A DNA stretch of 64,000 nt from Escherichia coli. GTDB lineage: Bacteria; Pseudomonadota; Gammaproteobacteria; Enterobacterales; Enterobacteriaceae. This document shows positions 24,915 through 64,000 of the stretch, in pieces. How positions within the stretch are numbered: position 1 is the stretch's first letter; each line of letters starts with the position of its first letter. The translations under genes and the position numbers were made by a program. The notes beneath the pieces were generated by a model, which did not search any database, was not told the DNA's origin, and saw nothing but the letters and a program-made list of their open reading frames with translations. The stretch is taken from assembly GCF_017348835.2 (NCBI RefSeq), contig NZ_CP071375.1; one strand, 5' to 3'.

Positions 24915-25346
24915 TTAACGGGTGCGCGGGCACACTTCACCTTCGCCGAAGAAATAAGCGATTTCGCGAGCGGCAGATTCGACGGAGTCAGAGCCGTGGG
25001 TACCGTTTTCGGTCAGGCTGTCAGCGTAATCAGCGCGCAGAGTACCGGCCAGTGCGTTTGCCGGATTGGTCGCGCCCAGCAGATCGCGGTGACGCTGAAC
25101 GGCGTTTTCACCTTCCAGCACGGAAACCACGATCGGGCCAGAGGTCATGAATTCAACCAGACCATCAAAGAACGGTTTTCCATCGTGTTCAGCATAAAAG
25201 CCACGAGCCTGTTCAACGGTCAGGTGCAGCATTTTGGTGCCGACAATTTTGAACCCTGCAGCTTCAAAGCGCGCAAAGATATTACCAATGACGTTTTTTG
25301 CTACCGCGTTCGGTTTGATAATGGAAAAAGTACGTTCAATAGCCAT
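24915..25346 (-). CDS. ndk: Nucleoside diphosphate kinase
   Basis: 143-aa [24 protein letters not shown]... Confidence 0.95.
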
Positions 25347-25486
25347 TTTTACCTCTGTAAATTGTTCTGTTGTTGTCTGTACCAGCGTACGAGATGGCGC
25401 GGATTATAATGAGCAACAGAGCCGTTGACTATTGATGAAGGTAACATTTTTTTAAAATAAAATGAGTTTTAGCAACAACTCGACTT

Positions 25487-26341
25487 TTATGGTGTTCTCA
25501 TCCCATAGCGATGACGTTGGCAATAAAGACAATTTTGCGCATTTTGCTGAAAAGTAAGAAAGGATTTTTGACAGGTTTTACAGACTTTGCGATTAGCATG
25601 AAGATTCACAATTTTTGCCGGTAGAATCGTCAATTCAACGGTCATTGCCTGATGAAAACAAACAGCAATACAATTTTGGCATCCGTTACACAAGGCATCA
25701 TTTATTTGTAAATGGCCTTCGTTAAGCGAAAAGACCTGTTGCTCGCAGGCCCGCCAGCATGCACCGCAAAGCTGACACTTTTGAGGATCCATCATCGGGC
25801 GAGCATCACTAATCTGGGGCCAAAAATAATGTAACCGACGTAATCCTGGTTGTATTTGTGTCATCTGAACATCCGCACGCTGCACATGGAACAAACGACG
25901 CCGGGAAACATTCACCTCACTGGTATGTGGAGATACCACAGACCAGCCTTCCTCGCCATATTGCCGTAAGCGTTCGTTTAACAGCAATAATGCGCGCTCC
26001 CATGCCTTCGCCTGACTCAGATCAATCGCGATCGCTGTGATCCCCTGCTCTTTATGCCATAGCAAAAGTTCTTCCAGCGTCGGCGCAATAGTGGTGAAAG
26101 GTGCGACCAGGGTGTGATTGCGAAAATAACGTAAAGGGGAATTAACGCCACGAATAGCCTCTTGCGGGCAAATAAACTGGCAAACCGCACACTCAATACA
26201 TTGTTCCGCGTCGACCGCTACGCCCTCTTCTGTCAGCGTTAGCGCCTGTGCCGGGCAAGCCTCGACACAGGCATGACATGTTGCAAAACGAAAGCGTTGG
26301 CGCGCGCATTCCGCGCCAATCGTTATGTTATGACTTAACAT
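25487..26341 (-). CDS. Poly-ferredoxin-like protein ([4Fe-4S] CxxCxxCxxxC motifs plus C-terminal CxxC...CxxC), last gene of the Dms-like operon
   Basis: 284-aa ORF with CIECAVCQFICP, CQLCGACWRAC, CNGCQNCIAVC and CKTC...CLYC; stop/start overlap with the upstream gene at 26341. Confidence 0.6.
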   Translation of the reverse strand: MLSHNITIGAECARQRFRFATCHACVEACPAQALTLTEEGVAVDAEQCIECAVCQFICPQEAIRGVNSPLRYFRNHTLVAPFTTIAPTLEELLLWHKEQGITAIAIDLSQAKAWERALLLLNERLRQYGEEGWSVVSPHTSEVNVSRRRLFHVQRADVQMTQIQPGLRRLHYFWPQISDARPMMDPQKCQLCGACWRACEQQVFSLNEGHLQINDALCNGCQNCIAVCFHQAMTVELTILPAKIVNLHANRKVCKTCQKSFLTFQQNAQNCLYCQRHRYGMRTP

Positions 26342-27162
26342 TAGCCGATACTAAAAAAGACAAAACGCAGCATAACTTCACTCCCCACTAGCATTACGCT
26401 ACCGAATAACGCCGCCGGGATATTCTTTTTACAACCACCGACAGCAAAGAACATCATCCCAATGACGGAAATTCCCCAGCTTAGTGTCAGTATGGGTTTT
26501 AACTGTCCCAGCATCGCTAATGGCGCATGTGGCAATGTGGCTATCTGCATCGCATTTGCCGTTAAATCCCCTATCCACAACGGCTGAACCAACAAGCGCA
26601 ACAGAACCAGGAGAGCGATCACCAATACGCATCCATTACGCAGGGCATCAATCTGCGGCAAAATTCCGCTAATACGAAACACGGCTACCAGCGCTGAACC
26701 GAGAATTCCCACTGTACCTAAGAACATAATCAGCGTGTTGTAATGCTGCCAGGTGATAATCGACGTATGGATGTAAACTTGCGCCATGCAGAAAACATCA
26801 ACAATCCCGACCACTGCCGCTAGCATAAGCAGGAGTTGCCAGCCGCCTTTGCGTAACATGACCAGTAATGTGGATAAACCCAATAGCGCCAGATACAGCG
26901 TACCAAAGATAATTTCCCGACTCAGCCATGAACTGGAAAAGTGACTTAGCGCATGCATCGCATTAAGTGGATAACCCAGGTGTAAGGTAGAAATCAGTAA
27001 CCCTACGGCCCCTGCCAAAAAAGCCAACAGTAATGGCGGCCGCATAACCGGGCGGGCGCTGGAGGTGATTAAAATATGACGATGAAGAAACGCCAGCCAC
27101 AGCGTCATACCGACCGATGCCTGTAACAACAGCGTAAAAGCCATTAACGGTAATTCATGCAT
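26341..27162 (-). CDS. DmsC-family membrane anchor subunit of a DMSO-reductase-type enzyme
   Basis: 273-aa polytopic membrane protein; N-terminus MHELPLMAFTLLLQ resembles the DmsC/YnfH start; overlaps the B-subunit stop by 8 nt. Confidence 0.65.
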   Translation of the reverse strand: MHELPLMAFTLLLQASVGMTLWLAFLHRHILITSSARPVMRPPLLLAFLAGAVGLLISTLHLGYPLNAMHALSHFSSSWLSREIIFGTLYLALLGLSTLLVMLRKGGWQLLLMLAAVVGIVDVFCMAQVYIHTSIITWQHYNTLIMFLGTVGILGSALVAVFRISGILPQIDALRNGCVLVIALLVLLRLLVQPLWIGDLTANAMQIATLPHAPLAMLGQLKPILTLSWGISVIGMMFFAVGGCKKNIPAALFGSVMLVGSEVMLRFVFFSIG

Positions 27163-27784
27163 GATGTGACGCCTCCTTTTCCGCGCCCTGATGCGGTTTA
27201 ATCACCAGATTTGGCTGCGTAATCGACGAATCAGGTAAACCTTTCACATCACTGACATCGCCATACTTTTCACGCAACTCATCAATAGGGCCGAACTTAA
27301 TCGCCCCCAACGGGCACGTTGCCACGCAAATGGGTTGTTCTCCTTTAGCTTGCAGATCAATACAGAAATCGCATTTCGACATCTGCCCGGTCTGCTCATT
27401 CATTTGCGGTGCGCCGTAAGGACAGGACCATGCGCAGTAACCGCAACCGACGCACTTATCAGTATTCACGCGCACAATACCGTCTCCGGGACGCTTATGC
27501 ATCGCCATCGTCGGGCAATTTTTGGTACAGATCGGATCCGCGCAATGGTTACAGGAAACAGAAAGGGTATAAGCAAAGACATTATGACTCACACCGCCCT
27601 CTCCAGTGGCGATAAAGCCACCGCCGTTCACTTCATACACGCGGCGAAAACGTCGCCCAACCTCAAGGTTGTTTTTGTCTTTACAGGCCACCTGACACGC
27701 TTTACAGCCAGAACAACGCGAAGAGTCAATAAAGAACCCTAATTGTTTGTCGCTGACAGATGCAAATTCTTTAAATTGGCTCAT
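27155..27784 (-). CDS. DmsB-family four-cluster [4Fe-4S] ferredoxin subunit
   Basis: 209-aa ORF with four Cys-cluster motifs (CKACQVAC, CNHCADPIC, CVGCGYCAWSC, CDFC...C); overlaps the A-subunit stop by 4 nt. Confidence 0.8.
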   Translation of the reverse strand: MSQFKEFASVSDKQLGFFIDSSRCSGCKACQVACKDKNNLEVGRRFRRVYEVNGGGFIATGEGGVSHNVFAYTLSVSCNHCADPICTKNCPTMAMHKRPGDGIVRVNTDKCVGCGYCAWSCPYGAPQMNEQTGQMSKCDFCIDLQAKGEQPICVATCPLGAIKFGPIDELREKYGDVSDVKGLPDSSITQPNLVIKPHQGAEKEASHHA

Positions 27785-30162
27785 GCTTTCTCAACCTCCA
27801 CCAGCATTGTTTGATGTGAATTCCCTTTCGCCAGCGCCGTAATGCGGGTCGAACTCAGTACATTGGCGCAGCCTCCGCGATCAATACCTTGTGCATCCGG
27901 TTGCCACCATGCCCCCGCCTGCATAGCAACTACGCCAGGGATGATACGGGGGGTTATTTCCACCGGGATAATGCTCACACCACGATCGTTATAAATTTTT
28001 ACGCTATCTCCTTCGACAATCCCGCGCTGTTTTGCATCTTGCGGATTCAGCCAGAGTTTTTGCGTCTGAACTTCTTGCAGCCACGGGTTAGCATACTGGG
28101 TGGAATTAGCACGGTTTTTCCCTTTCCAGGTGATGAGCTGCAACGGGTATTTCGCCGTCAGTTTATCTTCTGGCCCTTCAAAGGCAGGGACATAGTGCGA
28201 AAGCGCGGGAATTTCTGGATCTTGCATATCAAAAAGACGCTTAGAGAAGATCTCAATTTTGCCGGAAGGCGTCGGGAAAGGATTATTCTGCGGATCGCGA
28301 ATATTTGCTTCGAAAGCGATGTGCGGCGCGCTTTTGAAAAGATGTCGACGTGTTTTTTGCAGGGTCGCGAAGTCCGGCAAATTTTCATCCGGCATCGCCA
28401 GACGAGTTTGCTCCCAGATATGCTCGATCCATTGCTTCTCATCACGTCCTTGACTGAACTCGGCTTCGACACCCAGTTTTTTCGCCACGTCACGCAACCA
28501 GTCATAATCGGTGCGACGTTCAAACTCCGGCTCAATCAGTTTTTCTGACAGAATGAGATAGCTCGCCGTTCCCCATGTTTCGCCGATATTCCAGCGTTCC
28601 ATAAAGCTGGTTTCCGGCAGCAACACATCGGCATATTTCGCGCTCGGAGTCATGAACAGATCGCTGAGTACGATGAATTCTATTTTAGATTCGTCTTCAA
28701 GGAGCTTCGCGGCCTGGTGGACGTCCGGGTTCTGGTTCGCCAGATAATTACCTGCCAGTGAGAACAGCAGGCGGATATTACTGTCGAGTTTATCGACACC
28801 TTTAAGCCCATCTTGTGGCGTAACTTTAGAAGCATCATCCGCCGCCTGCATCCAGTTCATAATCGAGATTTTCGCTTGTACCGGATTTTCTGGCATATCT
28901 GGTCCAACGCAGAATTTACGATTAGAACTACCGCCATAACCTGCCGCCCAGCCACCTTTGATGCCGACGTTACCGGTAATCGAGGCCAGTAAAGTTGAAC
29001 CTCGGGCGGTGCGTTCGCCGCAAATATGTCGCTGCGGTCCCCATCCCTGAATCAACGCTGCGGGTTTCGTGTTGGCGTAATCACGGGCCAGTTGACGAAT
29101 AGTTTGCGCTGGAACGTGGGTAATTTTTTCTGCCCATTCCGGCGTTTTGTGTATCCCATCTTTTGCGCCAAAAAGGTAGGCAACCAACGATTCGTTGGCT
29201 GGTACGCCTTCCGGCATGGAGTTTTCATCAAAACCGAGAGTATATGTGTCGATAAATGTCTTATCATGGAGATTCTCGCTGATAATGACGTACATCATCG
29301 CGTCCATCAACGCATTGTCCGTGGTCGGCAACAGCGGGATCCACTGATCGGCAAGTGAAGATACGGTGTCGGAATAGCGCGGATCCACCACGATAAAACG
29401 TGTACCGTTTTGCTTCATTTTTTGAAAATAGTAATTGGTGTGACCGAATATGGTTTCCGTTGGGTTATGCCCCCAGAGAATCACCAGTTTGGTATCCAGA
29501 AGAGTATCCATCGAGTTACCGCTCGCGGCCACGCCATACGTGTAAGGCGTGGCCGCCGCAGTATTACCCAGACTAACTGAGTGATAATATTCAAGATAAC
29601 CACCGGTTAAATTTAACAGCCGACGCGCCATCGCATCGCCAGAAAATGTTCCACCAGAAACAGCCGTCCCGACATGGACATAACGTGAAGCCGGGCCATA
29701 TTGTTGCGTGATCCTTTTCAGGTTATCGGCAATTAAGGTCGTCGCCTCATCCCATGAAATACGCTCAAATTTCCCCTCGCCCCGTTTACCGACCCGTTTC
29801 ATCGGATATTTCAGGCGGTCTGGATGATAAACAAATTTACGATAGCCGCGACCACGAACACAGGCGCGCATAATCGGCATTTGTGGATCCAATTCGTTAT
29901 CGGGAAGCGTGGTAATTTGCGTCACCACACCGTCGCACATATGCGCCCGAATATCGCACTTACCACCGCAGTCAAATGTGCTACAGGTGGGCACGACTTT
30001 ATCAGCTACTGGAGCTGTAACTTCTGGCGACGCATCTGGGGATTGCGCCTTTGCGGTAGAAGAAATAAAAGGCAAAGTGATAAGCGCGGAAGTCGCTTGT
30101 AAAAAACTACGTCGTGATACTTGCGGAAATGTAATGCGTTCCTTTTCGTCTGGCGTATCCAT
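27781..30162 (-). CDS. Tat-exported molybdopterin oxidoreductase catalytic subunit (DMSO reductase family, DmsA/YnfE-like)
   Basis: 793-aa ORF with twin-arginine signal (SRRSFLQATSAL...AKA) and an N-terminal Cys cluster (CSTFDCGGKCDIRAHMCDG) typical of the FS0-binding region. Confidence 0.85.
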   Translation of the reverse strand: MDTPDEKERITFPQVSRRSFLQATSALITLPFISSTAKAQSPDASPEVTAPVADKVVPTCSTFDCGGKCDIRAHMCDGVVTQITTLPDNELDPQMPIMRACVRGRGYRKFVYHPDRLKYPMKRVGKRGEGKFERISWDEATTLIADNLKRITQQYGPASRYVHVGTAVSGGTFSGDAMARRLLNLTGGYLEYYHSVSLGNTAAATPYTYGVAASGNSMDTLLDTKLVILWGHNPTETIFGHTNYYFQKMKQNGTRFIVVDPRYSDTVSSLADQWIPLLPTTDNALMDAMMYVIISENLHDKTFIDTYTLGFDENSMPEGVPANESLVAYLFGAKDGIHKTPEWAEKITHVPAQTIRQLARDYANTKPAALIQGWGPQRHICGERTARGSTLLASITGNVGIKGGWAAGYGGSSNRKFCVGPDMPENPVQAKISIMNWMQAADDASKVTPQDGLKGVDKLDSNIRLLFSLAGNYLANQNPDVHQAAKLLEDESKIEFIVLSDLFMTPSAKYADVLLPETSFMERWNIGETWGTASYLILSEKLIEPEFERRTDYDWLRDVAKKLGVEAEFSQGRDEKQWIEHIWEQTRLAMPDENLPDFATLQKTRRHLFKSAPHIAFEANIRDPQNNPFPTPSGKIEIFSKRLFDMQDPEIPALSHYVPAFEGPEDKLTAKYPLQLITWKGKNRANSTQYANPWLQEVQTQKLWLNPQDAKQRGIVEGDSVKIYNDRGVSIIPVEITPRIIPGVVAMQAGAWWQPDAQGIDRGGCANVLSSTRITALAKGNSHQTMLVEVEKA

Positions 30163-30217
30163 CTTGCGTTCCCGAAAATGAAAAAATAAATATTCACGTA
30201 TTTATTCGAGAACAATG

Positions 30218-30231
30218 CTGATAACAATCAA
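30218..30231. promoter_or_regulatory. Candidate FNR/CRP-family box upstream of the Dms-like operon
   Basis: cTGATaacaATCAA matches the FNR consensus TTGAT-N4-ATCAA at 9 of 10 positions, centred about 62 bp upstream of the A-subunit start codon in an AT-rich spacer. Confidence 0.3.
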
Positions 30232-30325
30232 ATAATTAGTCGTTTAAAAAAACGTGAGATTATTAAATTATTAATGTATTCCAAATATAAATGCCATAAT
30301 TAGATTAATAAATATTTTGTATATT

Positions 30326-32638
30326 TCACTGAAATGAAAAATATACTGTCGCGATTTGCCCCACCTCATCCATCACCAGCAATTGATAATCGCCTTTATC
30401 CATCAAATGCAGGGTCACGTTGCGCCCGCGTTCAGTTAACGGTTCGCCATTCAGAAACCACCAGCGTTCACCTGCTCCTCCACTTGATTGCACCGGCAAA
30501 GTCGCTTCTGCTGCGCCCGGTAAACGTTTAATAATCGCGCCATCGCGAACGCCTGTCAGCTGCAGCGGGAGTTGTGCATGGTGACCGTATGGCGGGCAAA
30601 TTGTCGAGGCCGGTGGTAAGCGCACAGCGCGACGTTCTGATGCGGGCAACCAGGGTTCCAGCGGTAGCGGCCAGACATTTATCATTTCTTGTCGCGCTTG
30701 CGGGCAATCAGCGGCAACACGTTTGCCATTTTCATCCAGCCAGATGGGGAAACGAATGCCATTAATGCCTTCCTGCTCCGGCAGTAATAGAGTTGGCGGC
30801 TGACTCCTGTCCAGCAGCCAGGTTGCCAGGCGGCGGCGACAGTTACCGTCACCTTCCGGCAAAGACTGTCCGCCCGGCCAGCAGATAACGCCACGAGTGA
30901 CTGAGTTCGGGCGCGGGTCTTCCGGCAGATTAGCACTGCGCGACAGTAAGATATTATTGACCTGATTCAACAATGGTACGGCGCTGGCAAAACCAAACTG
31001 ACCAACAACGGGCGTGCCGTCCGGTCTGCCAGTCCAGATCCCAATGACATAGCGAGCGTTAACCCCAATCGCCCAGGCGTCACGATAGCCATAGCTGGTG
31101 CCCGTTTTCCATGCCAGTGGGGCGACGCGCGGCAAGGCACCATCCGGCAAGGGTTGCGCTTCATCAGCCATAATCCGGCGAATGATCCACGCAGCCCCCG
31201 ACGACATTAAAGGCCGTTCAAGCAGCGGATCGTCAGGCTGTAAGCGCAATTTGCCTGCCTTGCCGTGGCGAGCAAACGCGGTATACGCTGCCGCCATATC
31301 TTCCAGTTTTGCACCAGCGCCGCCGAGAATGAGCGAAAGATTCGGCGCCGCACCGTTGGGCAAATATAACGGCAATCCAACATTGCGTAACTTTGCCGCA
31401 AACCGTTTCGGTCCATAGGCTTCCAGTACCTGCACAGCAGGTAAATTCAGCGAGCGCACCAGCGCCTCGCTCATGCTGATCGGGCCATGAAAACCGCTAT
31501 CAAAGTTACCTGGTCGATAATCACCGGTGCGCCGGGGGACGTCTTGCAGCAGTGATGCCGGGTGGATCAAGCCTTCATCCAGCGCCAGACCATAAACAAA
31601 CGGTTTGAGCACCGATCCTGGCGATCGGATCGCATTGACCATATCAACATGACCAAAGCGTGAATCATCGTTGAGATCTACCGATCCCACCCAGCCGCGA
31701 ACACGCATATCGGTATGATCAACCACGATCATCGCCAGTGAGCTGCGCGGCGGCAATCGTCCTTTCCAGTTTTGCGCCAGTTCTTCCAGACGTCGCTGAA
31801 GCCCGGCATCCAGCGTAGTAACGATTTTGTCGCTTTTACTTTTACCGAGCATCATGCGCGAAAACAGCGGTGCCAGTTGCGGCATTTGTCGGGGTGCCAG
31901 CCAGATGGGTTCTTCCCTTGACTCTTTTACCTGCTCACGGGACCACACACCTTGCACGGCCATCCGTTCGAGCACTTTATTACGCGCGGCTTCGGCACGC
32001 TCCGGCCAACGATCCGGGCGAAGACGGCTGGGCGCTTGCGGCAAAACCGCCAGCATTGCCGCCTCGGAATAGCTTAAATTCGCAGGCGATTTTCCGAGAT
32101 AAGCCCAACTTGCCGCACCGATCCCCTGCAACGTACCGCCAAACGGAGCGCGGTTAAGATACAAGGTCAGAATTTCACGCTTAGACAAATGCCACTCCAG
32201 TTGCAACGCGCGCCAGAGCTGGCGAATTTTGCCGCCAAATGTTTTGGGGTGAGGATCAAGCAGACGAGCAACCTGCATAGTGAGCGTGCTGCCACCGGAA
32301 ATAACCCGTCCCGAAGTGAAATCTTGCCATGCTGCGCGCGCCACCGAGAATGGATTCACCCCAGGATGCTTCCAGAACCAGCGATCTTCATAATTGATCA
32401 GCGCTTCAAGGTAACGTGGAGAAACATCTTCGATTGTTACAGGATAACGCCAGATGCCGTCAGCATCGGCGAAGCGCCAGAGCGGCGTACCATCCTGCGC
32501 CACGACCACTCGTGCGGGATTGACTTCATGCAGCGGTAGAGGCCAGAGTTTATCTGCTCCCCACGCTGCAAGAAAAAGGAGAAATGGCGCAGCTGCCAGC
32601 GTTATCCAGCAGCCGCGTTTGGTTAACAAGCGAGGCAT
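30326..32638 (-). CDS. pbpC: Penicillin-binding protein 1C (transglycosylase/transpeptidase)
   Basis: 770-aa ORF; abuts the upstream yfhM stop. Confidence 0.93.
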   Translation of the reverse strand: MPRLLTKRGCWITLAAAPFLLFLAAWGADKLWPLPLHEVNPARVVVAQDGTPLWRFADADGIWRYPVTIEDVSPRYLEALINYEDRWFWKHPGVNPFSVARAAWQDFTSGRVISGGSTLTMQVARLLDPHPKTFGGKIRQLWRALQLEWHLSKREILTLYLNRAPFGGTLQGIGAASWAYLGKSPANLSYSEAAMLAVLPQAPSRLRPDRWPERAEAARNKVLERMAVQGVWSREQVKESREEPIWLAPRQMPQLAPLFSRMMLGKSKSDKIVTTLDAGLQRRLEELAQNWKGRLPPRSSLAMIVVDHTDMRVRGWVGSVDLNDDSRFGHVDMVNAIRSPGSVLKPFVYGLALDEGLIHPASLLQDVPRRTGDYRPGNFDSGFHGPISMSEALVRSLNLPAVQVLEAYGPKRFAAKLRNVGLPLYLPNGAAPNLSLILGGAGAKLEDMAAAYTAFARHGKAGKLRLQPDDPLLERPLMSSGAAWIIRRIMADEAQPLPDGALPRVAPLAWKTGTSYGYRDAWAIGVNARYVIGIWTGRPDGTPVVGQFGFASAVPLLNQVNNILLSRSANLPEDPRPNSVTRGVICWPGGQSLPEGDGNCRRRLATWLLDRSQPPTLLLPEQEGINGIRFPIWLDENGKRVAADCPQARQEMINVWPLPLEPWLPASERRAVRLPPASTICPPYGHHAQLPLQLTGVRDGAIIKRLPGAAEATLPVQSSGGAGERWWFLNGEPLTERGRNVTLHLMDKGDYQLLVMDEVGQIATVYFSFQ

Positions 32639-35600
32639 TTACGGTCTGACAATCAGCAAATCTTCAGCCGCGCCGGTCGCCCGCCATTGGGGAACATACA
32701 TTGATTCCACCATCGGTTGCGGTACCTGATACGTTCCCGGCGTCACCGCCCGCGCCAGATACACCAGCGTTACCGGTTGGTATTCATCAACGGCAACCGC
32801 CGCCACAAAGCGATCGTCACGGAACTCAATGTGCTTAATACTCGCCTGCTGCATCTGGTTCAGTAAGTTCTGCACTTCGCCACCACTTTGCTCCAGGCTG
32901 GCGCTACCGTTCGCCAGATTCTGGTTTTCCAGTTCCAGACCCGCAGGCAGCAGATCCACGACCAACGCATCCGGCACGCTGTTACTGGCTTTTACCTGCA
33001 ACCAGACCAGCACCAGATCGCCGCTACGTAACGAGTCCAGCGATTTGCTCTTACCATCAGTACCAAGAATATGACGCTCAATTTGCAGCACATTGTTCGC
33101 CGGTAAAGGTGCGGATTGCGGATAACCGCTGGCATCCACACGCAGCCATAACGGCTGCTCGCCACTGTTGGTCACCTGCAAGGTGGCAAGTTGATCGCTA
33201 TTCAGATTGCTGTTTTGCGCTTTCTCGCCTGTCAGCGGCTCAGTTGAGAAAGAGGTTTGCGCCTGCCATTTACCTGGTAAATCCTGAATCGTACGGGCAG
33301 CCAGGAACAACGCGTTACTTTCCTGCGTCGATAGCCAGCGTTCACCAAACGCCTGCTGCGAAAGTGTGTTCAGCAAAGTGTACTGCTCATCGGGTAGCAG
33401 TTTATTTTCTTCCAGCAAGGAGAGCATTAACGCGTTGTCGCGCAGTGGACTACCGTAATCACCCAGCCATATCCGCTCATCACTATTTCTCGGCGTTTTC
33501 AGCGCCAGCACAATCGCTTCTTCACCACGCGTTGCATCACCCATGGTTTTCAGCGCAACGCCAAGTTGCAGCAGCGGTAAACCAGAAGCGGCATCTGCAC
33601 GATGCTCCCAGATTTCACGCAGCGCACCCAACGGAGCCTTTTGCTGACGGGCCAACACCAGCGCAGCGTAAGACTGTACGGCGAATTTACTGGCTTTGAG
33701 ATTATCCGCGTACGGGATCGACATCATGCCCGGATCTTGTAAATAGCGCAGCAGACGCTCATTACCCCGGTTAATGGCGTCTGTCGGCACGCTGTAACCC
33801 TGTTCGCCTGCGCGGACCAGGAAATCCATCACGTAAGCCGTCAGCCAGTACTCTTCGTCACCGTTTTTATCCCACAGCGCAAAGCCGCCGTTATCACGTT
33901 GCATTTGCAGCAAACGGGAAATGCCGATATCGACCGATGCACGGCGTTTCTCATCACTGTCGCCTTTGATGCCCAACGCCTGCAGTTGGGCTGCGTTGGT
34001 ATAAAGTGACGGGAACAGGCCGCTGGCGGTTTGCTCAAGACAGCCGTACGGATACGCTTTTAACTCTTTGATATAACGTGCGATGTTCAGCGGTGGTTTG
34101 CCGCTCAACAACAATTGCCCTTCCAGCGTAACAGGCGAGAAGTTTTGCAATCCATCCGCCGGAATCGCCCATGTCTCACCAGGCTGTAACGCCGTACCGT
34201 AATTAACCGTTTGTGCCGGGAACGCCGGACGGACGCCGATTTTCCACTGCTTATGCTGATCGGCAACGGTTTCACCCGGTAACGCTAACCCGCTAATGGT
34301 GGCCTGAATTTCTCCATCGCCATAACCCGGCAATGCTCGCACCGGGATAAACAGCGTAGTACGCACACCTGGCGCTAATTCAACGGCTGCGGGTGAATCG
34401 CTGACCAGTTCAAGCAAACCACTGGCGGTCAGGGCAACGTTCAGTTTTTGCGGTTTATCGGTAAGATTAGTGATATCCAGCGTCAGACGCGAGGTATCGC
34501 CACTCGCCATAAAGCGCGGCATGTTCAGTTCAGCAATCACCGGTGCGGCAACTATCACTTTGCTTTCGTTGCTACCGAAGTCATCTGCCGTCCAGGCTTG
34601 CGCCATGACGCGCAATTCACCGTTAAAATCGCCAATCGGCAGTGTAACCGAGCCTTCGCCCTGTTCGTTGAGCGTTACCGGCAGCGCCTGCTGCGCGACA
34701 ATATTGACGTGATTGACCGGCGGTTTACCACCACGTTTCAGCTCATCACCATCGCCACCGAAACGCAGAGCTGCCAGACGCCCCTGACCTTCAATAACCT
34801 GACCGTAAATATCGTAAATGTCCGCGCCATAGCGTTTCTGACCAAAGAACGCCTGCCACGGATCTGGCGTGACGTAGTCAGTAATATTCAGCACACCACT
34901 ATCAACGGCAGACACCAGCACATTCACCTGTTTAGGCTTCTCGCCATTTTTAGTGCTGGCTTTAATTTTCACGGTTAATGGTTGATTGGGACGCATTTTT
35001 GCTGGTGTTTCCAGCGCCAGATCGAGGCGACGGTTTTCATCACCAAGCGGCAGATGCAACACACCAACCGCGCGTTTTGGCGTCGCGGAGCGAGATTTAT
35101 CGCCAGGACGCACCACCAGCGTACTCAAATAAAGATCATGACGATGCCAGGTTTTATCGACCGGAATCGTCAGATCCAGCCCTTGAGCCGGAACATCAAT
35201 CTCTTGCCACCACAGCGGCCCTTCACTGGACTCGACCATCGCATAACCTTTACCCGCCGTTGGCGCGGCAATATGCAACTTAATGGTGTCGCCTGGGCGA
35301 TAACTGGCTTTATCCAGTTTCATCGTGACACGGTCGGGTCGCACGACACCGCTCCCGTCGCTGTTGTCCTGCCAGCTATAGCCAGCCCAGAAACGCACAC
35401 TACTGACCGCTTCATTCGGCGCTTTGACTTCCAGACGATAAGCGCCCCACTCTACCGGGAAACTGACCTTGCCGGTTTCGTCCGCTTTCAGATCCAGAGT
35501 TTGTTCATTTTCAATCAGATCTTTTTGATCAAACTGTGATTGCCAGCCTTCATCTTCTGACCAGTTCCAGTAGTAATCGCGGCGTTCGCGAATCAGGCGC

Positions 35601-37600
35601 ACCTGCAAGCCCGACACGGCTTTTTTCACGCCTTGCGCATCGCTATAAACGATGTCAAAAGCGGCGTTACTGCCTTCATCAACAATGGGCTGTTTCACCG
35701 TGCTGTCAGTGCGATAATCGTAAACCGATTTCGAGGCGAACTGCGGACGGAGCCCCGGCAATGCATCGGCAGGCCAGATAGCCTGCTCAGCGCGGCGCGT
35801 CACCGGGCGACCGCCCGATTCCAGCAAACTGCCCTGGAAAATAACCTGCAAAGGGGAATGCGTTTCCTTCCACTGGCTTTCTGTAGAAACTTCGCCGCGC
35901 CCTTTATCATCCAGCGTCAACTGAACTTCATCCAGCGTGCGGGAAAGGTTTTCGGCAGCTATATCGCCGAATTCAAAACCAGGTAAGGCTGACACAGCCT
36001 CACGCAGTGGGCGCAGGAAAAGTTGCCCTTGCAAAGTATTACCATTAGCAGGCGCACCGTACAGGTAGTATCCCACCACGGAGAATTTCACTTCATCATT
36101 CGGCGTAAGCGGGGTTTTCTCACCGGTCAGATTCAGCGCCATACGCTCTGGCATAAAATCTTCGACGTGGAAATCCCACATCCGATACTGGTTATCGCCC
36201 GTGTTAGCACGAATATGCCACATACCGGTTGCCGCATTGCTATCGAGTGGCCAGGTAAAGTGGTAGAGGCCATTTTCCGGCTGACTAACGACGCTCCTGA
36301 GTACCTGCCCATCGGGTTTAATCACGTCTAACTTGATGGGTTGATTGGGCAACGCTTTACCGTCTGCATCACGCAGCAAACCATTGAGGATGACCGTTTC
36401 TCCCGGGCGATAAAGATCGCGCGGGCCAAACATGAAAAACTGTTTGCTATAGCCTGGCGCACCTGCAATGTTAAATTCTGCTAAGTCCAGCGCCGGAAGT
36501 TTTAAATCGAGTAGCGTTGTCTGACCGTCTTTACGTGCCAGCAGTAATGCCGCATTTTTATCATTTTCCAGCTGCACATGCCCCTGAGCGTCACTGGTTG
36601 CCTGAGTCAGAGTCTGCCCTTTCTCATTTAATAAAGAGACTTCAATTCCTTGCTGGGCCGCGCCGTTTTCCAGACTTTGGGTAAAGATATCCAGACGATT
36701 GTGATAACGGTGAGCTGAAACGCCGATATCACTTAACGTAAACAGCGTCGCGGGATTACTGTAATCGTAACGTCCAGCCTGATTCATCACAGCCAGATAC
36801 ACGCCCGCCTGCTGAAGCGGTTTGATATCGCCCAGCGGCAGCAATAATTTTTCACGGGTGTTACGCGCAGGATTGAGATCAAACCGTCCGGTGTAGACCA
36901 GATCCGCCATCTGCAGCAGTTTGTCTGACTGCCAGTTCGCCAGCGAATTGCGGTATTCCCATTGGCTAATGAATGCTGGCAGAGATTCTGGCTTAACGCG
37001 GAAGAAGTTAACATCGACATTATTAACGTTGAGCGCCATTACCGGCAGCCCTTCAACGACTTTACCAGGCAGCAGCGAACCACGGCTGGCAAAACCGACG
37101 CTGGGTTGGATGTCGCGGGTAGTTATAGTTTTTTCGTAATCTTTACTGAAGGTTGCGTTGTTGAGTGCTTTGACCTCCTTGCCAATAGTAACGATCAAAT
37201 CACGTTTCGGTTCGAGGTGGCGTAAACGCAGCTCTTTAAGATTATCTGACAGCTCCCAGGCACCATCCACTTTGCCGCTTTTTTTATCGACGACATGAAT
37301 AACGCGTGAGAAATCCTGATCCGGGTCGAGAGGGATGGAGAACGTCAGCACCAGCGTGGCTGCACCATCAAGTTGGACTTCAGAGAGATCCAGCAATGTC
37401 AGCGCCTTACCGGCACTCTGTTGTGCCAGTTTTTGTCGCTCTGGCGCGGAGAGTTTTGCTGAACTCGCGTTTTCTGAAGAGGCCGCTTTAGTAACTTCAG
37501 AAGGCGCATCTTTTTTCACCGCTGTTGGCGCGTTATCGTTGTTGTCGCACCCTGCCAGCGCCAGCATTAGCATGCAGGCGGCTACGCGTAACTTTTTCAT
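32639..37600 (-). CDS. yfhM: Alpha-2-macroglobulin family lipoprotein
   Basis: 1653-aa ORF with lipobox LALAGC; operon partner of pbpC. Confidence 0.93.
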   Translation of the reverse strand: MKKLRVAACMLMLALAGCDNNDNAPTAVKKDAPSEVTKAASSENASSAKLSAPERQKLAQQSAGKALTLLDLSEVQLDGAATLVLTFSIPLDPDQDFSRVIHVVDKKSGKVDGAWELSDNLKELRLRHLEPKRDLIVTIGKEVKALNNATFSKDYEKTITTRDIQPSVGFASRGSLLPGKVVEGLPVMALNVNNVDVNFFRVKPESLPAFISQWEYRNSLANWQSDKLLQMADLVYTGRFDLNPARNTREKLLLPLGDIKPLQQAGVYLAVMNQAGRYDYSNPATLFTLSDIGVSAHRYHNRLDIFTQSLENGAAQQGIEVSLLNEKGQTLTQATSDAQGHVQLENDKNAALLLARKDGQTTLLDLKLPALDLAEFNIAGAPGYSKQFFMFGPRDLYRPGETVILNGLLRDADGKALPNQPIKLDVIKPDGQVLRSVVSQPENGLYHFTWPLDSNAATGMWHIRANTGDNQYRMWDFHVEDFMPERMALNLTGEKTPLTPNDEVKFSVVGYYLYGAPANGNTLQGQLFLRPLREAVSALPGFEFGDIAAENLSRTLDEVQLTLDDKGRGEVSTESQWKETHSPLQVIFQGSLLESGGRPVTRRAEQAIWPADALPGLRPQFASKSVYDYRTDSTVKQPIVDEGSNAAFDIVYSDAQGVKKAVSGLQVRLIRERRDYYWNWSEDEGWQSQFDQKDLIENEQTLDLKADETGKVSFPVEWGAYRLEVKAPNEAVSSVRFWAGYSWQDNSDGSGVVRPDRVTMKLDKASYRPGDTIKLHIAAPTAGKGYAMVESSEGPLWWQEIDVPAQGLDLTIPVDKTWHRHDLYLSTLVVRPGDKSRSATPKRAVGVLHLPLGDENRRLDLALETPAKMRPNQPLTVKIKASTKNGEKPKQVNVLVSAVDSGVLNITDYVTPDPWQAFFGQKRYGADIYDIYGQVIEGQGRLAALRFGGDGDELKRGGKPPVNHVNIVAQQALPVTLNEQGEGSVTLPIGDFNGELRVMAQAWTADDFGSNESKVIVAAPVIAELNMPRFMASGDTSRLTLDITNLTDKPQKLNVALTASGLLELVSDSPAAVELAPGVRTTLFIPVRALPGYGDGEIQATISGLALPGETVADQHKQWKIGVRPAFPAQTVNYGTALQPGETWAIPADGLQNFSPVTLEGQLLLSGKPPLNIARYIKELKAYPYGCLEQTASGLFPSLYTNAAQLQALGIKGDSDEKRRASVDIGISRLLQMQRDNGGFALWDKNGDEEYWLTAYVMDFLVRAGEQGYSVPTDAINRGNERLLRYLQDPGMMSIPYADNLKASKFAVQSYAALVLARQQKAPLGALREIWEHRADAASGLPLLQLGVALKTMGDATRGEEAIVLALKTPRNSDERIWLGDYGSPLRDNALMLSLLEENKLLPDEQYTLLNTLSQQAFGERWLSTQESNALFLAARTIQDLPGKWQAQTSFSTEPLTGEKAQNSNLNSDQLATLQVTNSGEQPLWLRVDASGYPQSAPLPANNVLQIERHILGTDGKSKSLDSLRSGDLVLVWLQVKASNSVPDALVVDLLPAGLELENQNLANGSASLEQSGGEVQNLLNQMQQASIKHIEFRDDRFVAAVAVDEYQPVTLVYLARAVTPGTYQVPQPMVESMYVPQWRATGAAEDLLIVRP

Positions 37601-42758: not shown

Positions 42759-44609
42759 TTAAACCTCGTCCACGGAATGGCCTTTCAGCGCACGACGAAC
42801 CGACTGGTCCATGCGGCGAGCGGCGAAATCCTGGGTTTGTTTGTCTACGTTTTTAATCGCTTGTTCGATGGCGTCAACGTCATCGCCCTGCGCCACTTCA
42901 CTCAGGTGAGCGGCAGCATCGTCAATGACCTGACGTTCTGCGGCGCTTAACAGCGCGGCATCAGCAACCAGCGCGCCGTGCAGACTTTCCAGCACACGCG
43001 CCGCTTCTACTTTTTGTTCTGCCAGCATTCGGGCTTTTACGTCCTGCTCGGCATAGCTCATTGAGTCTTTGATCATCGAAGCGATTTCGCTATCGGTCAG
43101 ACCGTAAGACGGTTTGACCTGAATAGACGCCTCAACGCCGGTGGATTTCTCCATCGCCGTCACGCTCAAAAGACCGTCGGCATCGACCTGGAACGTCACG
43201 CGAATATGCGCACCGCCAGCCGGTAGCGCCGGAATACCACGCAGCGCAAAACGCGCCAGTGAGCGGCAGTCCTGCACCAGTTCGCGCTCACCCTGCATTA
43301 CATGGATAGACATCGCCGTCTGACCATCTTTAAAGGTGGTGAAATCCTGAGCGCGGGCCACCGGAATAGTGGTATTACGCGGAATCACTTTCTCCACCAG
43401 GCCGCCCATCGTTTCGAGGCCCAGCGACAGTGGGATCACATCAAGCAACAGCATTTCGCTGTCTGGCTTGTTACCCACCAGAATATCCGCCTGAATCGCC
43501 GCGCCAATAGCGACGACTTTATCCGGGTCGATGGAAGTCAGCGGTGGACGACCGAAAAATTCGCCTACCCGTTCACGCACCAGCGGCACGCGAGTAGAAC
43601 CGCCCACCATCACCACTTCCAGTACTTCGTCAGCCTCAACACCCGCATCTTTCAGCGCGCGACGACAGGCCAGTAAGGTTCGTTTTACCAGTGGCGCGAT
43701 CAGTTCATTGAATTGTTCACGGCTGATTTCGCCCTGCCAGCCCGCAACGTTAACGGTCACGGAGTCCGCATCGCTCAGCGCGATTTTGGCTGCAATGGCG
43801 GCATCCAGCAGTTCACGCTGAACGCGGTTATCGCTACGATCAGGAATGCCCGCCTGCTCGCGAATGTAATCCGCCAGCAGATGGTCGAAATCATCGCCGC
43901 CGAGCGCGGAATCACCGCCGGTTGCCAGCACTTCAAACACGCCGCGACTTAAGCGCAGAATGGAAATATCAAACGTCCCGCCACCGAGGTCATAAACGGC
44001 GATCACGCCTTCCTGACCGGAATCCAGCCCGTAGGCGATAGCCGCAGCGGTCGGTTCGTTAAGTAAGCGCAGGACGTGAAGGCCCGCCAGACGCGCCGCG
44101 TCTTTGGTGCCCTGACGCTGGGCATCGTCAAAGTACGCCGGAACGGTGATAACTACACCATCCAGCTCGCCTGCCAGGGCTTCAGTTGCCCGCGCCGCCA
44201 GTGCTTTGAGGATGTCCGCAGAAACGCGCACCGGGTTCAGCAGCCCCGCCGCCGTTTCAATCATCGGCAGGCCGTTTTCGCTGGCCTGGAATTGATAAGG
44301 CAGATGCGGATAGCGTTGCTGGATATCAGCCAGCGAGCGTCCCATCAGGCGTTTAACAGAACTAATTGTGTTGGCGGTATCGAGCGCTGCATTAGTACGC
44401 GCGTCATAACCCACCGAATGCCCTTGCTGTTGATAGTGAACAACAGATGGCAGCAGGTGACGGCCTTCATGGTCGGCTAACGTTTCGGCCTGACCGCTGC
44501 GCACTGTCGCCACCAGCGAGTTGGTTGTGCCCAGGTCAATACCGGCCGCCAGACGACGCTGATGCGGCGCAGCACTCAAACCAGGTTCACTAATTTGTAA
44601 TAAGGCCAT
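42759..44609 (-). CDS. hscA: Hsp70-type Fe-S cluster chaperone HscA
   Basis: ORF track 42759..44663; start trimmed to MALLQISEP (616 aa); Hsp70 signature IDLGTTNS. Confidence 0.93.
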
Positions 44610-63880: not shown

Positions 63881-64000
63881 TTAGGGCAGACCATCAACGT
63901 GCGTTGCCAGCCACTGTTTACCGTCTTCCGTTTTGGTATAGAGATCGATTGGCACCTGAATCACTTTTTCACCGTCGGCTTGTTTATTGATAACCTTCAA
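63881..64000 (-). CDS. yphF: ABC transporter periplasmic binding protein YphF, 3' end only
   Basis: Minus-strand frame open from the window edge to TAA at 63881-63883 (...DGKQWLATHVDGLP*); position matches yphF. Confidence 0.6.
   Translation of the reverse strand: MKVINKQADGEKVIQVPIDLYTKTEDGKQWLATHVDGLP

What the first reader, a model, noticed from the sequence alone, without database searches (positions are those of the whole stretch)
30163..30325. AT-rich control region of the Dms-like operon with a candidate FNR box
The 163-bp spacer between pbpC and the catalytic subunit is strongly AT-rich and contains cTGATaacaATCAA (30218-30231), a 9/10 match to the FNR consensus centred about 62 bp upstream of the start codon. 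That would fit anaerobic induction.
Basis: partly seen in the sequence, partly recalled or inferred. Interest (0 to 1): 0.35.

Follow-up and report, generated by a model that had tools for sequence, protein, structure and literature searches.

The report
Conserved FNR promoter of a DmsA-like operon
The short AT-rich gap in front of a strain-variable E. coli reductase operon holds a binding site for the oxygen-sensing regulator FNR that relatives conserve at the same position, so the operon is very probably switched on without oxygen; this is an ordinary kind of switch, not yet shown by experiment in E. coli.

Summary
The window is E. coli. The 163-bp gap (30163-30325, 22% GC) between pbpC and a Tat-exported DMSO/selenate-family reductase gene contains CTGATAACAATCAA (30218-30231), which matches the FNR consensus at 9 of 10 positions and is centred 62.5 bp before the ATG.

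On its own the match is weak evidence (P about 0.03 in composition-matched shuffles). Comparison with relatives makes it strong. Of 63 orthologous loci, 44 have exactly one box with at most one mismatch, always in the same 49-nt interval and nowhere else in 600 nt upstream. A conserved -10-like hexamer (GAATAT, 30195-30190) follows the box by 21-22 nt. That spacing is the class II (-41.5) geometry of K-12 dmsA P1.

A 2025 preprint, citing a 2007 microarray study, lists the Salmonella counterpart I take to be the orthologue (STM2530/STM14_3103) among the loci most activated by FNR.

Verdict: a new member of a known kind and of modest interest. No transcription start or FNR binding was tested.

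One extra feature emerged. An inverted repeat brackets the -10 and covers the ribosome-binding site. Its sequence varies between genera with complementarity kept in most. It occurs almost only where pbpC reads into the operon. It may block translation of read-through transcripts; this is inference.

The parts
30163..30325 (-). Intergenic spacer between the pbpC stop and the start of the DmsA-like gene. It is 163 bp and 22% G+C. All of it lies inside the strain-variable segment that K-12 lacks.
30218..30231 (-). FNR box TTGATTGTTATCAG (coding strand), 9 of 10 matches to TTGAT-N4-ATCAA. Its centre at 30224.5 is 62.5 bp upstream of the ATG and at about -41.5 from the predicted transcription start.
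   Evidence: Conserved position in orthologues:
30190..30195 (-). -10-like hexamer GAATAT, 22 nt downstream of the box. It aligns with GAGAAT or GAAAAT in other genera. The A at hexamer positions 2, 4 and 5 is nearly invariant and the T at position 6 is invariant; E. coli has T at position 4.
   Evidence: Same spacing as K-12 dmsA P1 (box, 21 nt, TAATAC):
30181..30185 (-). Predicted transcription start, inferred from the box at -41.5 and the -10 hexamer at -12 to -7. It has not been mapped. It would give a 5' untranslated region of about 20 nt.
   Evidence: inference
30205..30214 (-). Inverted-repeat arm 1, TGTTCTCGAA. It lies between the FNR box and the -10 hexamer, so it is upstream of the predicted start.
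30167..30176 (-). Inverted-repeat arm 2, TTCGGGAACG. It contains the Shine-Dalgarno-like GGGAA (30173-30169). It pairs with arm 1 over 10 bp, two of them G.U, with a duplex energy of -12.6 kcal/mol.
27781..30162 (-). Catalytic A subunit of the DMSO/selenate reductase family, 793 aa. It has a twin-arginine signal (SRRSFL) and the cluster motif C-x4-C-x3-C. It is 42% identical to K-12 DmsA.
27155..27784 (-). Iron-sulfur B subunit (TIGR02951, 266 bits, cut-off 214).
26341..27162 (-). Membrane anchor subunit. RefSeq calls it a DmsC-family anchor; it had no NCBIfam match here.
25487..26341 (-). Fourth gene of the operon, a 4Fe-4S dicluster domain protein of 284 aa.
30326..32638 (-). pbpC, the co-directional upstream gene. 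No terminator-like site was found between it and the DmsA-like gene.

Best explanation
The promoter-proximal part of the spacer is a simple class II FNR-dependent promoter for a four-gene reductase operon of the DMSO/selenate family. This operon is the E. coli counterpart of Salmonella STM2530-2527. I take it to be the orthologue, but I did not compare the sequences directly.

Proposed mechanism: under anoxia, dimeric [4Fe-4S]-FNR binds TTGATTGTTATCAG (30231-30218). From about -41.5 it recruits RNA polymerase to a promoter that has no -35 element and only a weak -10 (GAATAT, 30195-30190). Transcription then starts near 30183 and gives a leader of about 20 nt that carries the ribosome-binding site GGGAA.

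Shown here: the box, its conservation at a fixed position, the conserved -10-like hexamer at class II spacing, and the gene identities.

Inferred: the transcription start, FNR binding, and activation in E. coli.

A secondary, more tentative element is an inverted repeat. Its arm 1 (30214-30205) lies upstream of the predicted start, and its arm 2 (30176-30167) covers the ribosome-binding site. The two arms could pair only in transcripts that read through from pbpC. Pairing would hide the ribosome-binding site, so that only FNR-initiated transcripts are translated.
For: The box is a 9 of 10 match at the stated place.

Conservation of the box:
- In 63 orthologous loci anchored on the C-x-TFDCGG codon, 44 have exactly one box with at most 1 mismatch. 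All lie 227-275 nt upstream of the anchor, and none lies elsewhere in 600 nt.
- Perfect boxes occur in Salmonella arizonae and diarizonae, Enterobacter, Citrobacter, Leclercia, Siccibacter, Franconibacter, Budvicia, Morganella and Proteus, although the flanking sequences are not alignable.
- In a 20-sequence alignment, TTGA and TC of the box are invariant. A -10-like nAnAAT lies 21-22 nt downstream.

Promoter geometry:
- K-12 dmsA P1 shows box, 21 nt, then TAATAC. It is listed with its FNR site at -41.5, and activated promoters cluster at -40.5 to -42.5 (PMC3688515).
- No sigma-70 -35/-10 pair is found in the spacer, as expected for an activator-dependent promoter.
- In some Enterobacter species pbpC ends only 22 bp before the box, so the box plus core promoter is the only conserved control DNA.

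Other support:
- The box, -10 and ribosome-binding site are identical in O157:H7, and 378 E. coli genomes carry the spacer at 95% identity or more.
- Salmonella STM14_3103 is reported as strongly FNR-activated (PMC12636705, citing Fink 2007).

Inverted repeat:
- The arm 1/arm 2 duplex beats arm-1 shuffles in E. coli (p = 0.003) and in most pbpC-linked loci, with z from -2 to -9.8.
- The arm sequences differ between genera while staying complementary.
- A fixed-register count gives 57-60% of cells paired, against 35-48% for shifted registers, and 0 of 500 shuffles reach this.
- The stem appears in both the minimum-energy and centroid folds.
Against: No transcription start, FNR binding or expression data exist for E. 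coli.

The Escherichia box is the weakest in the group: 1 mismatch here and 2 in Escherichia sp. MOD1-EC7003, against 0 in most other genera. Its -10 hexamer (GAATAT) also departs from the group consensus. Decay of the promoter is therefore possible in a species where only 7% of complete genomes keep the operon.

The spacer is 22% G+C. Many good FNR sites in AT-rich DNA are silent in vivo because H-NS, IHF or Fis mask them (PMC3688515).

The evidence for Salmonella FNR dependence is second-hand, because the primary paper could not be read. The same preprint also reports aerobic expression.

For the inverted repeat:
- Whole-fold z-scores in E. coli are only -1.3 and -1.8.
- Sense and antisense duplex energies do not differ (p = 0.59), so the strand and the RNA nature of the structure are unresolved.
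- The association with a co-directional pbpC is confounded by phylogeny, because the pbpC-linked loci form one clade.
- Three pbpC-linked loci lack the repeat.
Confidence: 0.75

Rival explanations
1. The box is a real sequence match but has no effect in E. coli. It could be a chance or decaying word, or a site kept silent by nucleoid proteins such as H-NS on this 22% G+C DNA. The operon would then be expressed from read-through or from another signal.
For: Alone the match has P of about 0.03, and the window count is 4 against 2.1 expected. The Escherichia boxes and -10 are the most degenerate of the group. Only about 7% of genomes keep the operon. Myers 2013 found about 90% of the predicted FNR sites that lacked a ChIP peak to be occupied by H-NS, IHF or Fis. 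The bioRxiv study found no anaerobic DMSO phenotype for STM2530 and raised non-expression as one possibility.
Against: The box, -10 and ribosome-binding site are identical between strain PE164-like genomes and O157:H7. They are at least 95% conserved in 378 genomes. A 9 of 10 box equals the quality of the validated dmsA P1 box TTGATaccgAACAA. Positional conservation across genera argues for function in the family.
Confidence: 0.13
2. The site is used by FNR but not as a class II activator. Either it is a class I-type site at about -62 for a start at or next to the ATG, or it is a roadblock or repressor site acting on transcripts that come from pbpC or from the distal AT-rich DNA.
For: The box centre is 62.5 bp from the ATG, close to the class I position -61.5 if the mRNA were leaderless. 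No terminator separates pbpC from the operon.
Against: A conserved ribosome-binding site and a conserved -10-like hexamer at class II spacing argue against a leaderless start. Repression of an anaerobic-type reductase by FNR would contradict the reported activation of the Salmonella orthologue.
Confidence: 0.06
3. The palindrome is a CRP site, or a site for another CRP/FNR-family protein, rather than an FNR site.
For: CRP and FNR sites are related 5-bp inverted repeats. The promoter-proximal half-site here is CTGAT, which is neither the FNR type (TTGAT) nor the CRP type (GTGA).
Against: By eye, the match to TGTGA-N6-TCACA is only about 7 of 10. The T that distinguishes FNR sites (TTGA) from CRP sites (GTGA) is invariant in the distal half-site in 20 of 20 aligned orthologues. 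Most orthologues carry perfect TTGAT-N4-ATCAA. The discriminating role of that base is established knowledge recalled from memory.
Confidence: 0.03
4. The inverted repeat around the -10 is not an RNA element that hides the ribosome-binding site. It could be a DNA-level palindrome or simply a feature inherited within one clade, with no role in translation.
For: Sense and antisense energies are equal. Overall fold z-scores in E. coli are modest. The loci that have the repeat are each other's closest relatives. Fixed-register pairing is only 57-60%.
Against: The arm sequences change between genera with complementarity kept. Examples are CGTTCC/GGAACG, GGGTCC/GGACCC, TTCCTG/CAGGAA and CCTCG/CGAGG, which a protein-binding site would not do. 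15 of 18 pbpC-linked loci have the repeat, against 1 of 27 loci with a divergent upstream gene. Superficieibacter electus has a terminator-like hairpin after pbpC and lacks the repeat.
Confidence: 0.55

Closest known systems
E. coli K-12 dmsABC P1 promoter (class II FNR-activated, site at -41.5)
   Same: Both have a 9 of 10 FNR box (dmsA: TTGATaccgAACAA). Both have 21-22 nt between the box and a weak -10 hexamer, and neither has a -35 element. Both drive a Tat-exported molybdoenzyme operon of the same family.
   Different: The leader here is about 20 nt, against about 150 nt at dmsA. Simple pattern scans found no NarL heptamers and no conserved ModE-like site. The catalytic subunit is only 42% identical to DmsA and scores below the DmsA, YnfE and YnfF equivalog cut-offs. 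The operon has a fourth gene and is present in only about 7% of complete E. coli genomes.
Salmonella enterica STM2530-2527 (STM14_3103-3100; 'psr1' in preprint PMC12636705)
   Same: Both are four-gene operons. The same position downstream of pbpC is seen in S. enterica subsp. arizonae and diarizonae. Identity to E. coli DmsA is 42% here against 43% reported. The cluster motif is C-x4-C-x3-C. A perfect FNR box, TTGATAAATATCAA, sits at the same distance from the ATG. STM14_3103 is reported as strongly FNR-activated.
   Different: The Escherichia box has one mismatch. The proposed sulfate-reductase activity comes from an unreviewed preprint and was not assessed here.
IS10 'fold-back inhibition' (protection of the transposase gene from outside promoters; Davis, Simons and Kleckner 1985, recalled from memory and not found in the library)
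   Same: In both, an inverted repeat has its 5' arm upstream of the gene's own transcription start and its 3' arm over the ribosome-binding site. Only transcripts that start outside can form the hairpin, and those are not translated.
   Different: Here the context is a respiratory operon downstream of a housekeeping gene, not a transposon. The structure is only predicted. Neither its strand nor its effect has been tested.

Membership tests
Class II FNR-activated promoter | Inverted repeat matching TTGAT-N4-ATCAA | tested here: met
   TTGATTGTTATCAG matches at 9 of 10 positions. The validated dmsA P1 box in K-12 is also 9 of 10.
Class II FNR-activated promoter | Box placed one -35-equivalent upstream of a -10 element (site centre about -41.5) | tested here: met
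   22 nt separate the box from GAATAT, and 21-22 nt in 20 orthologues that carry a conserved nAnAAT. dmsA P1 has 21 nt. Activated promoters cluster at -40.5 to -42.5.
Class II FNR-activated promoter | Mapped transcription start that puts the site at -41.5 | not testable with these tools
   No 5' end data were available. The start near 30183 is inferred.
Class II FNR-activated promoter | FNR binding, and fnr- and oxygen-dependent expression | not testable with these tools
   The only support is second-hand. [quoted passage not shown] The primary paper is not held.
Class II FNR-activated promoter | Site conserved in orthologous promoters (phylogenetic footprint) | tested here: met
   44 of 63 loci have one box with at most 1 mismatch in a 49-nt interval, and none elsewhere in 600 nt. 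TTGA and TC are invariant.
DMSO/selenate reductase family operon (DmsABC type) | A subunit above the TIGR02166 cut-off, with a twin-arginine signal | tested here: met
   1127 bits against a cut-off of 778. SRRSFL lies at residues 16-21.
DMSO/selenate reductase family operon (DmsABC type) | B subunit above the TIGR02951 cut-off | tested here: met
   265.8 bits against a cut-off of 214.1.
DmsA proper, or YnfE/YnfF (equivalog level) | Score above the curated equivalog cut-offs | tested here: not met
   NF011566 scores 708 (cut-off 1600), YnfF 692 (cut-off 1650) and YnfE 667 (cut-off 1675). Identity to K-12 DmsA is 42%.
STM2530 / 'Psr1A' orthologous group | C-x4-C-x3-C cluster motif, four-gene operon, position downstream of pbpC | tested here: met
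   CSTFDCGGKC is present. The four genes are confirmed. pbpC lies upstream in the Salmonella subspecies loci L008 and L011. The motif is described in PMC12636705.
STM2530 / 'Psr1A' orthologous group | Direct high identity to the serovar Typhimurium protein | not tested
The closest Salmonella loci obtained are 84% identical.
Fold-back inhibition of read-through transcripts | 5' arm upstream of the gene's own start, 3' arm over the ribosome-binding site, complementarity maintained in evolution | tested here: inconclusive
   The geometry is met if the start is near 30183. Complementarity is significant in 15 of 18 pbpC-linked loci. Against this, the strand is unresolved, fixed-register pairing is 57-60%, and phylogeny is a confounder.
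Fold-back inhibition of read-through transcripts | Read-through transcripts exist and are poorly translated | not testable with these tools
   Only the absence of a terminator-like site after pbpC is shown.

The most novel reading that the evidence does not exclude
The FNR promoter sits inside a hairpin whose sequence varies between genera while staying complementary. One arm lies between the FNR box and the -10 hexamer, and the other covers the ribosome-binding site. Transcripts that read through from the constitutive yfhM-pbpC genes would fold and hide the ribosome-binding site. Transcripts started by FNR inside the loop would lack the upstream arm and be translated. This would be a chromosomal, metabolic-operon counterpart of IS10 fold-back inhibition. 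It would make synthesis of the enzyme strictly dependent on FNR even though no terminator follows the upstream gene.
Probability: 0.35. Interest if true: 0.5.

Novelty: new member of a known kind. Interest (0 to 1): 0.3.

Why it matters
The result assigns a concrete, testable control element to an operon whose expression conditions are still described as unknown for its Salmonella counterpart (bioRxiv 10.1101/2022.11.29.517730). The operon is carried by E. coli O157:H7 and O55:H7 but not by K-12, so the K-12 FNR regulon maps could not have seen it.

It predicts which bases to mutate and where the mRNA should start. If the read-through-blocking hairpin is real, it would show one way a gene inserted behind a housekeeping gene, with no terminator between them, can keep tight conditional expression.

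Beyond that, the finding is an ordinary FNR site.

Tried and rejected
- **Terminator and promoter scan of 29900-30600.** It found no terminator and no sigma-70 -35/-10 pair in the spacer.
- **Rfam scan of the region at E up to 1.** No match.
- **Pattern scans for NarL heptamers, ModE-like TATAT-N6-8-TAYAT and IHF consensus in 20 orthologous upstream regions.** There were only scattered hits and none was conserved. The single E. coli TATAT-N6-TACAT is not shared even by Escherichia sp. E1V33.
- **RNAalifold on the plain MAFFT alignment.** It found only the palindromic FNR box itself. The arms of the larger repeat are not in homologous columns across lineages.
- **A covariance model of box plus hairpin.** It recovered only the 23 close loci and did not improve pairing.
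- **Sense versus antisense duplex energies, to decide the strand of the repeat.** No difference.
- **The repeat finder.** It did not list the arm pair, which is only 8 of 10 Watson-Crick with short exact runs. It listed many AT-rich repeats that I regard as low-complexity noise.
- **Literature.** Fink 2007 is not held. Searches with guessed O157 locus tags, which I could not verify as the right tags for these genes, found nothing relevant. No paper using 'fold-back inhibition' was found.
- **CRP-site reading.** Rejected on the invariant T of TTGA.

Full report
**What is in the window**

The window is Escherichia coli; the stretch tested (25400-32700) is 100% identical to strain PE164. Around the finding all genes run on the minus strand:
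- yfhM: 32639-37600
- pbpC: 30326-32638 (NF008414, 1562 bits)
- A subunit of the DMSO/selenate reductase family: 27781-30162 (TIGR02166, 1127 bits, cut-off 778; twin-arginine signal SRRSFL)
- B subunit: 27155-27784 (TIGR02951)
- membrane anchor: 26341-27162
- 4Fe-4S dicluster protein: 25487-26341
- ndk: 24915-25346

The A subunit falls well below the equivalog cut-offs for DmsA, YnfE and YnfF. It is 42% identical to K-12 DmsA. 'Dms-like' is therefore the right level of naming.

The four reductase genes and the whole spacer are strain-variable. Only 379-380 of 5426 complete E. coli genomes carry them, among them O157:H7 and O55:H7. K-12 has pbpC followed directly by ndk. Divergence from K-12 begins inside the last six codons of pbpC and ends about 110 bp before ndk.

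**Checking the observation**

CTGATAACAATCAA lies at 30218-30231, which reads TTGATTGTTATCAG on the coding strand. It matches TTGAT-N4-ATCAA at 9 of 10 positions and is centred 62.5 bp before the ATG at 30162. The spacer 30163-30325 is 163 bp and 22% G+C, against 52% for the window.

By itself the match is weak evidence. The window has 4 such words against 2.09 expected. In composition-matched shuffles of the spacer, 2.8% contain one.

**Comparative evidence**

A scan of one genome per species returned 80 loci that encode proteins 68-99% identical to the A subunit. I anchored each locus on the conserved C-x-TFDCGG codon. Of 63 loci, 44 contain exactly one FNR box with at most one mismatch in the 600 nt upstream. 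Every one of these lies 227-275 nt from the anchor, and there is none anywhere else. At the window's background rate, about one hit would be expected in all that sequence.

Perfect boxes occur in Salmonella enterica subsp. arizonae and diarizonae, several Enterobacter species, Citrobacter youngae, Leclercia, Siccibacter, Franconibacter, Budvicia, Morganella and Proteus. The surrounding DNA in these loci cannot be aligned.

In an alignment of 20 Enterobacteriaceae promoters, the invariant columns upstream of the start codon are TTGA and TC of the box, the final T of a -10-like hexamer, and one T in the T-rich stretch after it. The invariant T before GA is the base that distinguishes FNR sites from CRP sites; that role is established knowledge recalled from memory.

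The hexamer reads GAGAAT or GAAAAT in most genera and GAATAT (30195-30190) in E. coli. It lies 21-22 nt after the box.

The K-12 dmsA P1 promoter read here has TTGATaccgAACAA, then 21 nt, then TAATAC. It is catalogued with its FNR site at -41.5, and activated FNR promoters cluster at -40.5 to -42.5 (Myers 2013, PMC3688515). No sigma-70 -35/-10 pair is detectable in the spacer, which is typical of an activator-dependent promoter.

In Enterobacter hormaechei and its relatives, pbpC ends only 22 bp before the box. The distal 94 bp of the E. coli spacer is therefore not a conserved part of the control region. Scans for NarL, ModE and IHF motifs found nothing conserved there.

**Literature**

The Salmonella counterpart is STM2530-2527 (STM14_3103-3100). 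I take it to be the orthologue on four grounds:
- the four-gene organisation
- the position next to pbpC in the two Salmonella subspecies loci
- 42% identity to DmsA here against 43% reported
- the C-x4-C-x3-C cluster motif that a 2025 preprint assigns to this clade

I did not compare with the serovar Typhimurium sequence directly.

A 2022 bioRxiv study found no DMSO-dependent phenotype for STM2530. It states that its substrate and the conditions that activate its expression remain to be determined.

The 2025 preprint (PMC12636705) says STM14_3103 is among the loci most activated by FNR, citing the Fink 2007 microarray study. It renames the gene psr1A, for periplasmic sulfate reductase. I could not read Fink 2007, and I did not evaluate the enzymology claim. 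I found nothing on the E. coli copies.

**Mechanism proposed**

Under anoxia, FNR binds 30231-30218 and activates a class II promoter whose -10 is GAATAT. Transcription starts near 30183, giving a leader of about 20 nt with the ribosome-binding site GGGAA (30173-30169) six bases before the ATG.

The box, its conservation, the spacing and the gene content are shown here. The start site, FNR binding and regulation in E. coli are inferred.

There are three caveats:
- The Escherichia box and -10 hexamer are the most degenerate in the group.
- The operon has been lost from most E. coli genomes.
- AT-rich DNA of this kind is often covered by H-NS, which masks many good FNR sites in vivo.

**An additional feature: an inverted repeat around the -10**

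While aligning the promoters I noticed an inverted repeat that brackets the -10 hexamer. In E. coli, TGTTCTCGAA (30214-30205) lies between the box and the -10. It can pair with TTCGGGAACG (30176-30167), which contains the ribosome-binding site. The pairing is 10 bp, two of them G.U, with an energy of -12.6 kcal/mol. Only 0.3% of arm-1 shuffles do as well. The stem appears in the minimum-energy and centroid folds of both 68-nt and 161-nt transcripts.

In other genera the arms differ in sequence but stay complementary:
- Enterobacter wuhouensis: 16 bp, -27 kcal/mol, TGCTCGTTCCTTCAAA with TTTGAAGGAACGAGCA
- Enterobacter sp. RIT418: GGGTCC with GGACCC
- Escherichia sp. MOD1-EC7003: TTCCTGAA with TTCAGGAA
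- Citrobacter youngae: CCTCG with CGAGG

Strong complementarity (z of -2 or lower) is found in 15 of 18 loci where pbpC lies upstream in the same direction. It is found in only 1 of 27 loci whose upstream gene is divergent. Superficieibacter electus has a terminator-like hairpin after pbpC and lacks the repeat. No terminator-like site follows pbpC in the window.

Arm 1 lies upstream of the predicted FNR-dependent start. The hairpin could therefore form only in transcripts that read through from pbpC, where it would hide the ribosome-binding site. This is the logic of IS10 fold-back inhibition, which I recall from memory.

Several points weigh against this reading:
- The whole-fold z-scores in E. 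coli are modest (-1.3 and -1.8).
- A fixed-register count gives only 57-60% of cells paired, although this is above all shifted registers and all 500 shuffles.
- Sense and antisense energies do not differ.
- The pbpC-linked loci form one clade, so the association is not phylogenetically independent.

I rate this reading at about 0.35.

**Verdict**

This is a predicted class II FNR promoter of a familiar type, in front of an under-studied, strain-variable reductase operon. It is a new member of a known kind and of modest interest (0.3). The possible read-through-blocking hairpin is the only unusual element.

Noticed in passing
window 25455-30343: The four reductase genes plus the whole spacer form a segment that K-12 lacks. 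Divergence from K-12 starts inside the last six codons of pbpC, giving C-termini ...ATVYFSFQ here and ...ATVKFVMQ in K-12. It ends at TTGTTGCTAAAAC upstream of ndk. The segment is present in about 380 of 5426 complete E. coli genomes, including O157:H7 and O55:H7. The same pbpC-linked position in Salmonella, Enterobacter, Lelliottia and Superficieibacter suggests ancestral presence with loss in most E. coli lineages.
   Followed up: partly
L084 (E. coli strain 4FM, NZ_CM137007.1) 2288-2985; corresponds to about window 30205-30213: An IS1A element is inserted between the FNR box and the -10-like hexamer, inside repeat arm 1. This separates the box from the core promoter and is a natural promoter disruption.
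   Followed up: partly
window 30167-30176 and 30205-30214; loci L003-L014, L031, L073, L080, L082: An inverted repeat brackets the -10 hexamer and covers the ribosome-binding site. Its sequence varies between genera while staying complementary. It is found almost only where pbpC is the co-directional upstream gene.
   Followed up: yes
window 30245-30258 and 30194-30203 / 30248-30257: A small palindrome, CGTTTTTTTAAACG (coding strand), lies about 20 bp upstream of the FNR box. A 10-nt, 90% complementary pair (TCACGTATTT / AAAAACGTGA) encloses the box. Many other AT-rich inverted repeats occur in the spacer and are probably low-complexity noise.
   Followed up: no
window 32777-32790, 44430-44443, 63987-64000: Three further words lie within one mismatch of the FNR consensus. 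The first is inside yfhM. The total count in the window is not above chance.
   Followed up: no
L021 and L022: The contig labelled Chryseobacterium sp. 18061 (L022) gives the same values in every measure as the Citrobacter sp. 18056 contig (L021). It is probably a contaminated or mislabelled assembly.
   Followed up: no
window 27781-30162 (residues 60-69 of the protein): The catalytic subunit has the cluster motif C-x4-C-x3-C (CSTFDCGGKC), whereas K-12 DmsA has C-x3-C-x3-C. A 2025 preprint (PMC12636705) assigns the first type to a 'Psr1A' clade and claims molybdenum-independent periplasmic sulfate reduction for it. That claim is unreviewed and was not assessed here.
   Followed up: partly
L006 (Superficieibacter electus), about 100-200 nt upstream of the FNR box: A terminator-like hairpin, AAAAACAGG-N12-CCTGTTTTT, follows pbpC. 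This locus lacks the arm 1/arm 2 complementarity. It has instead a local hairpin (GCTTTCAT / ATGAAGC) over the ribosome-binding site.
   Followed up: no
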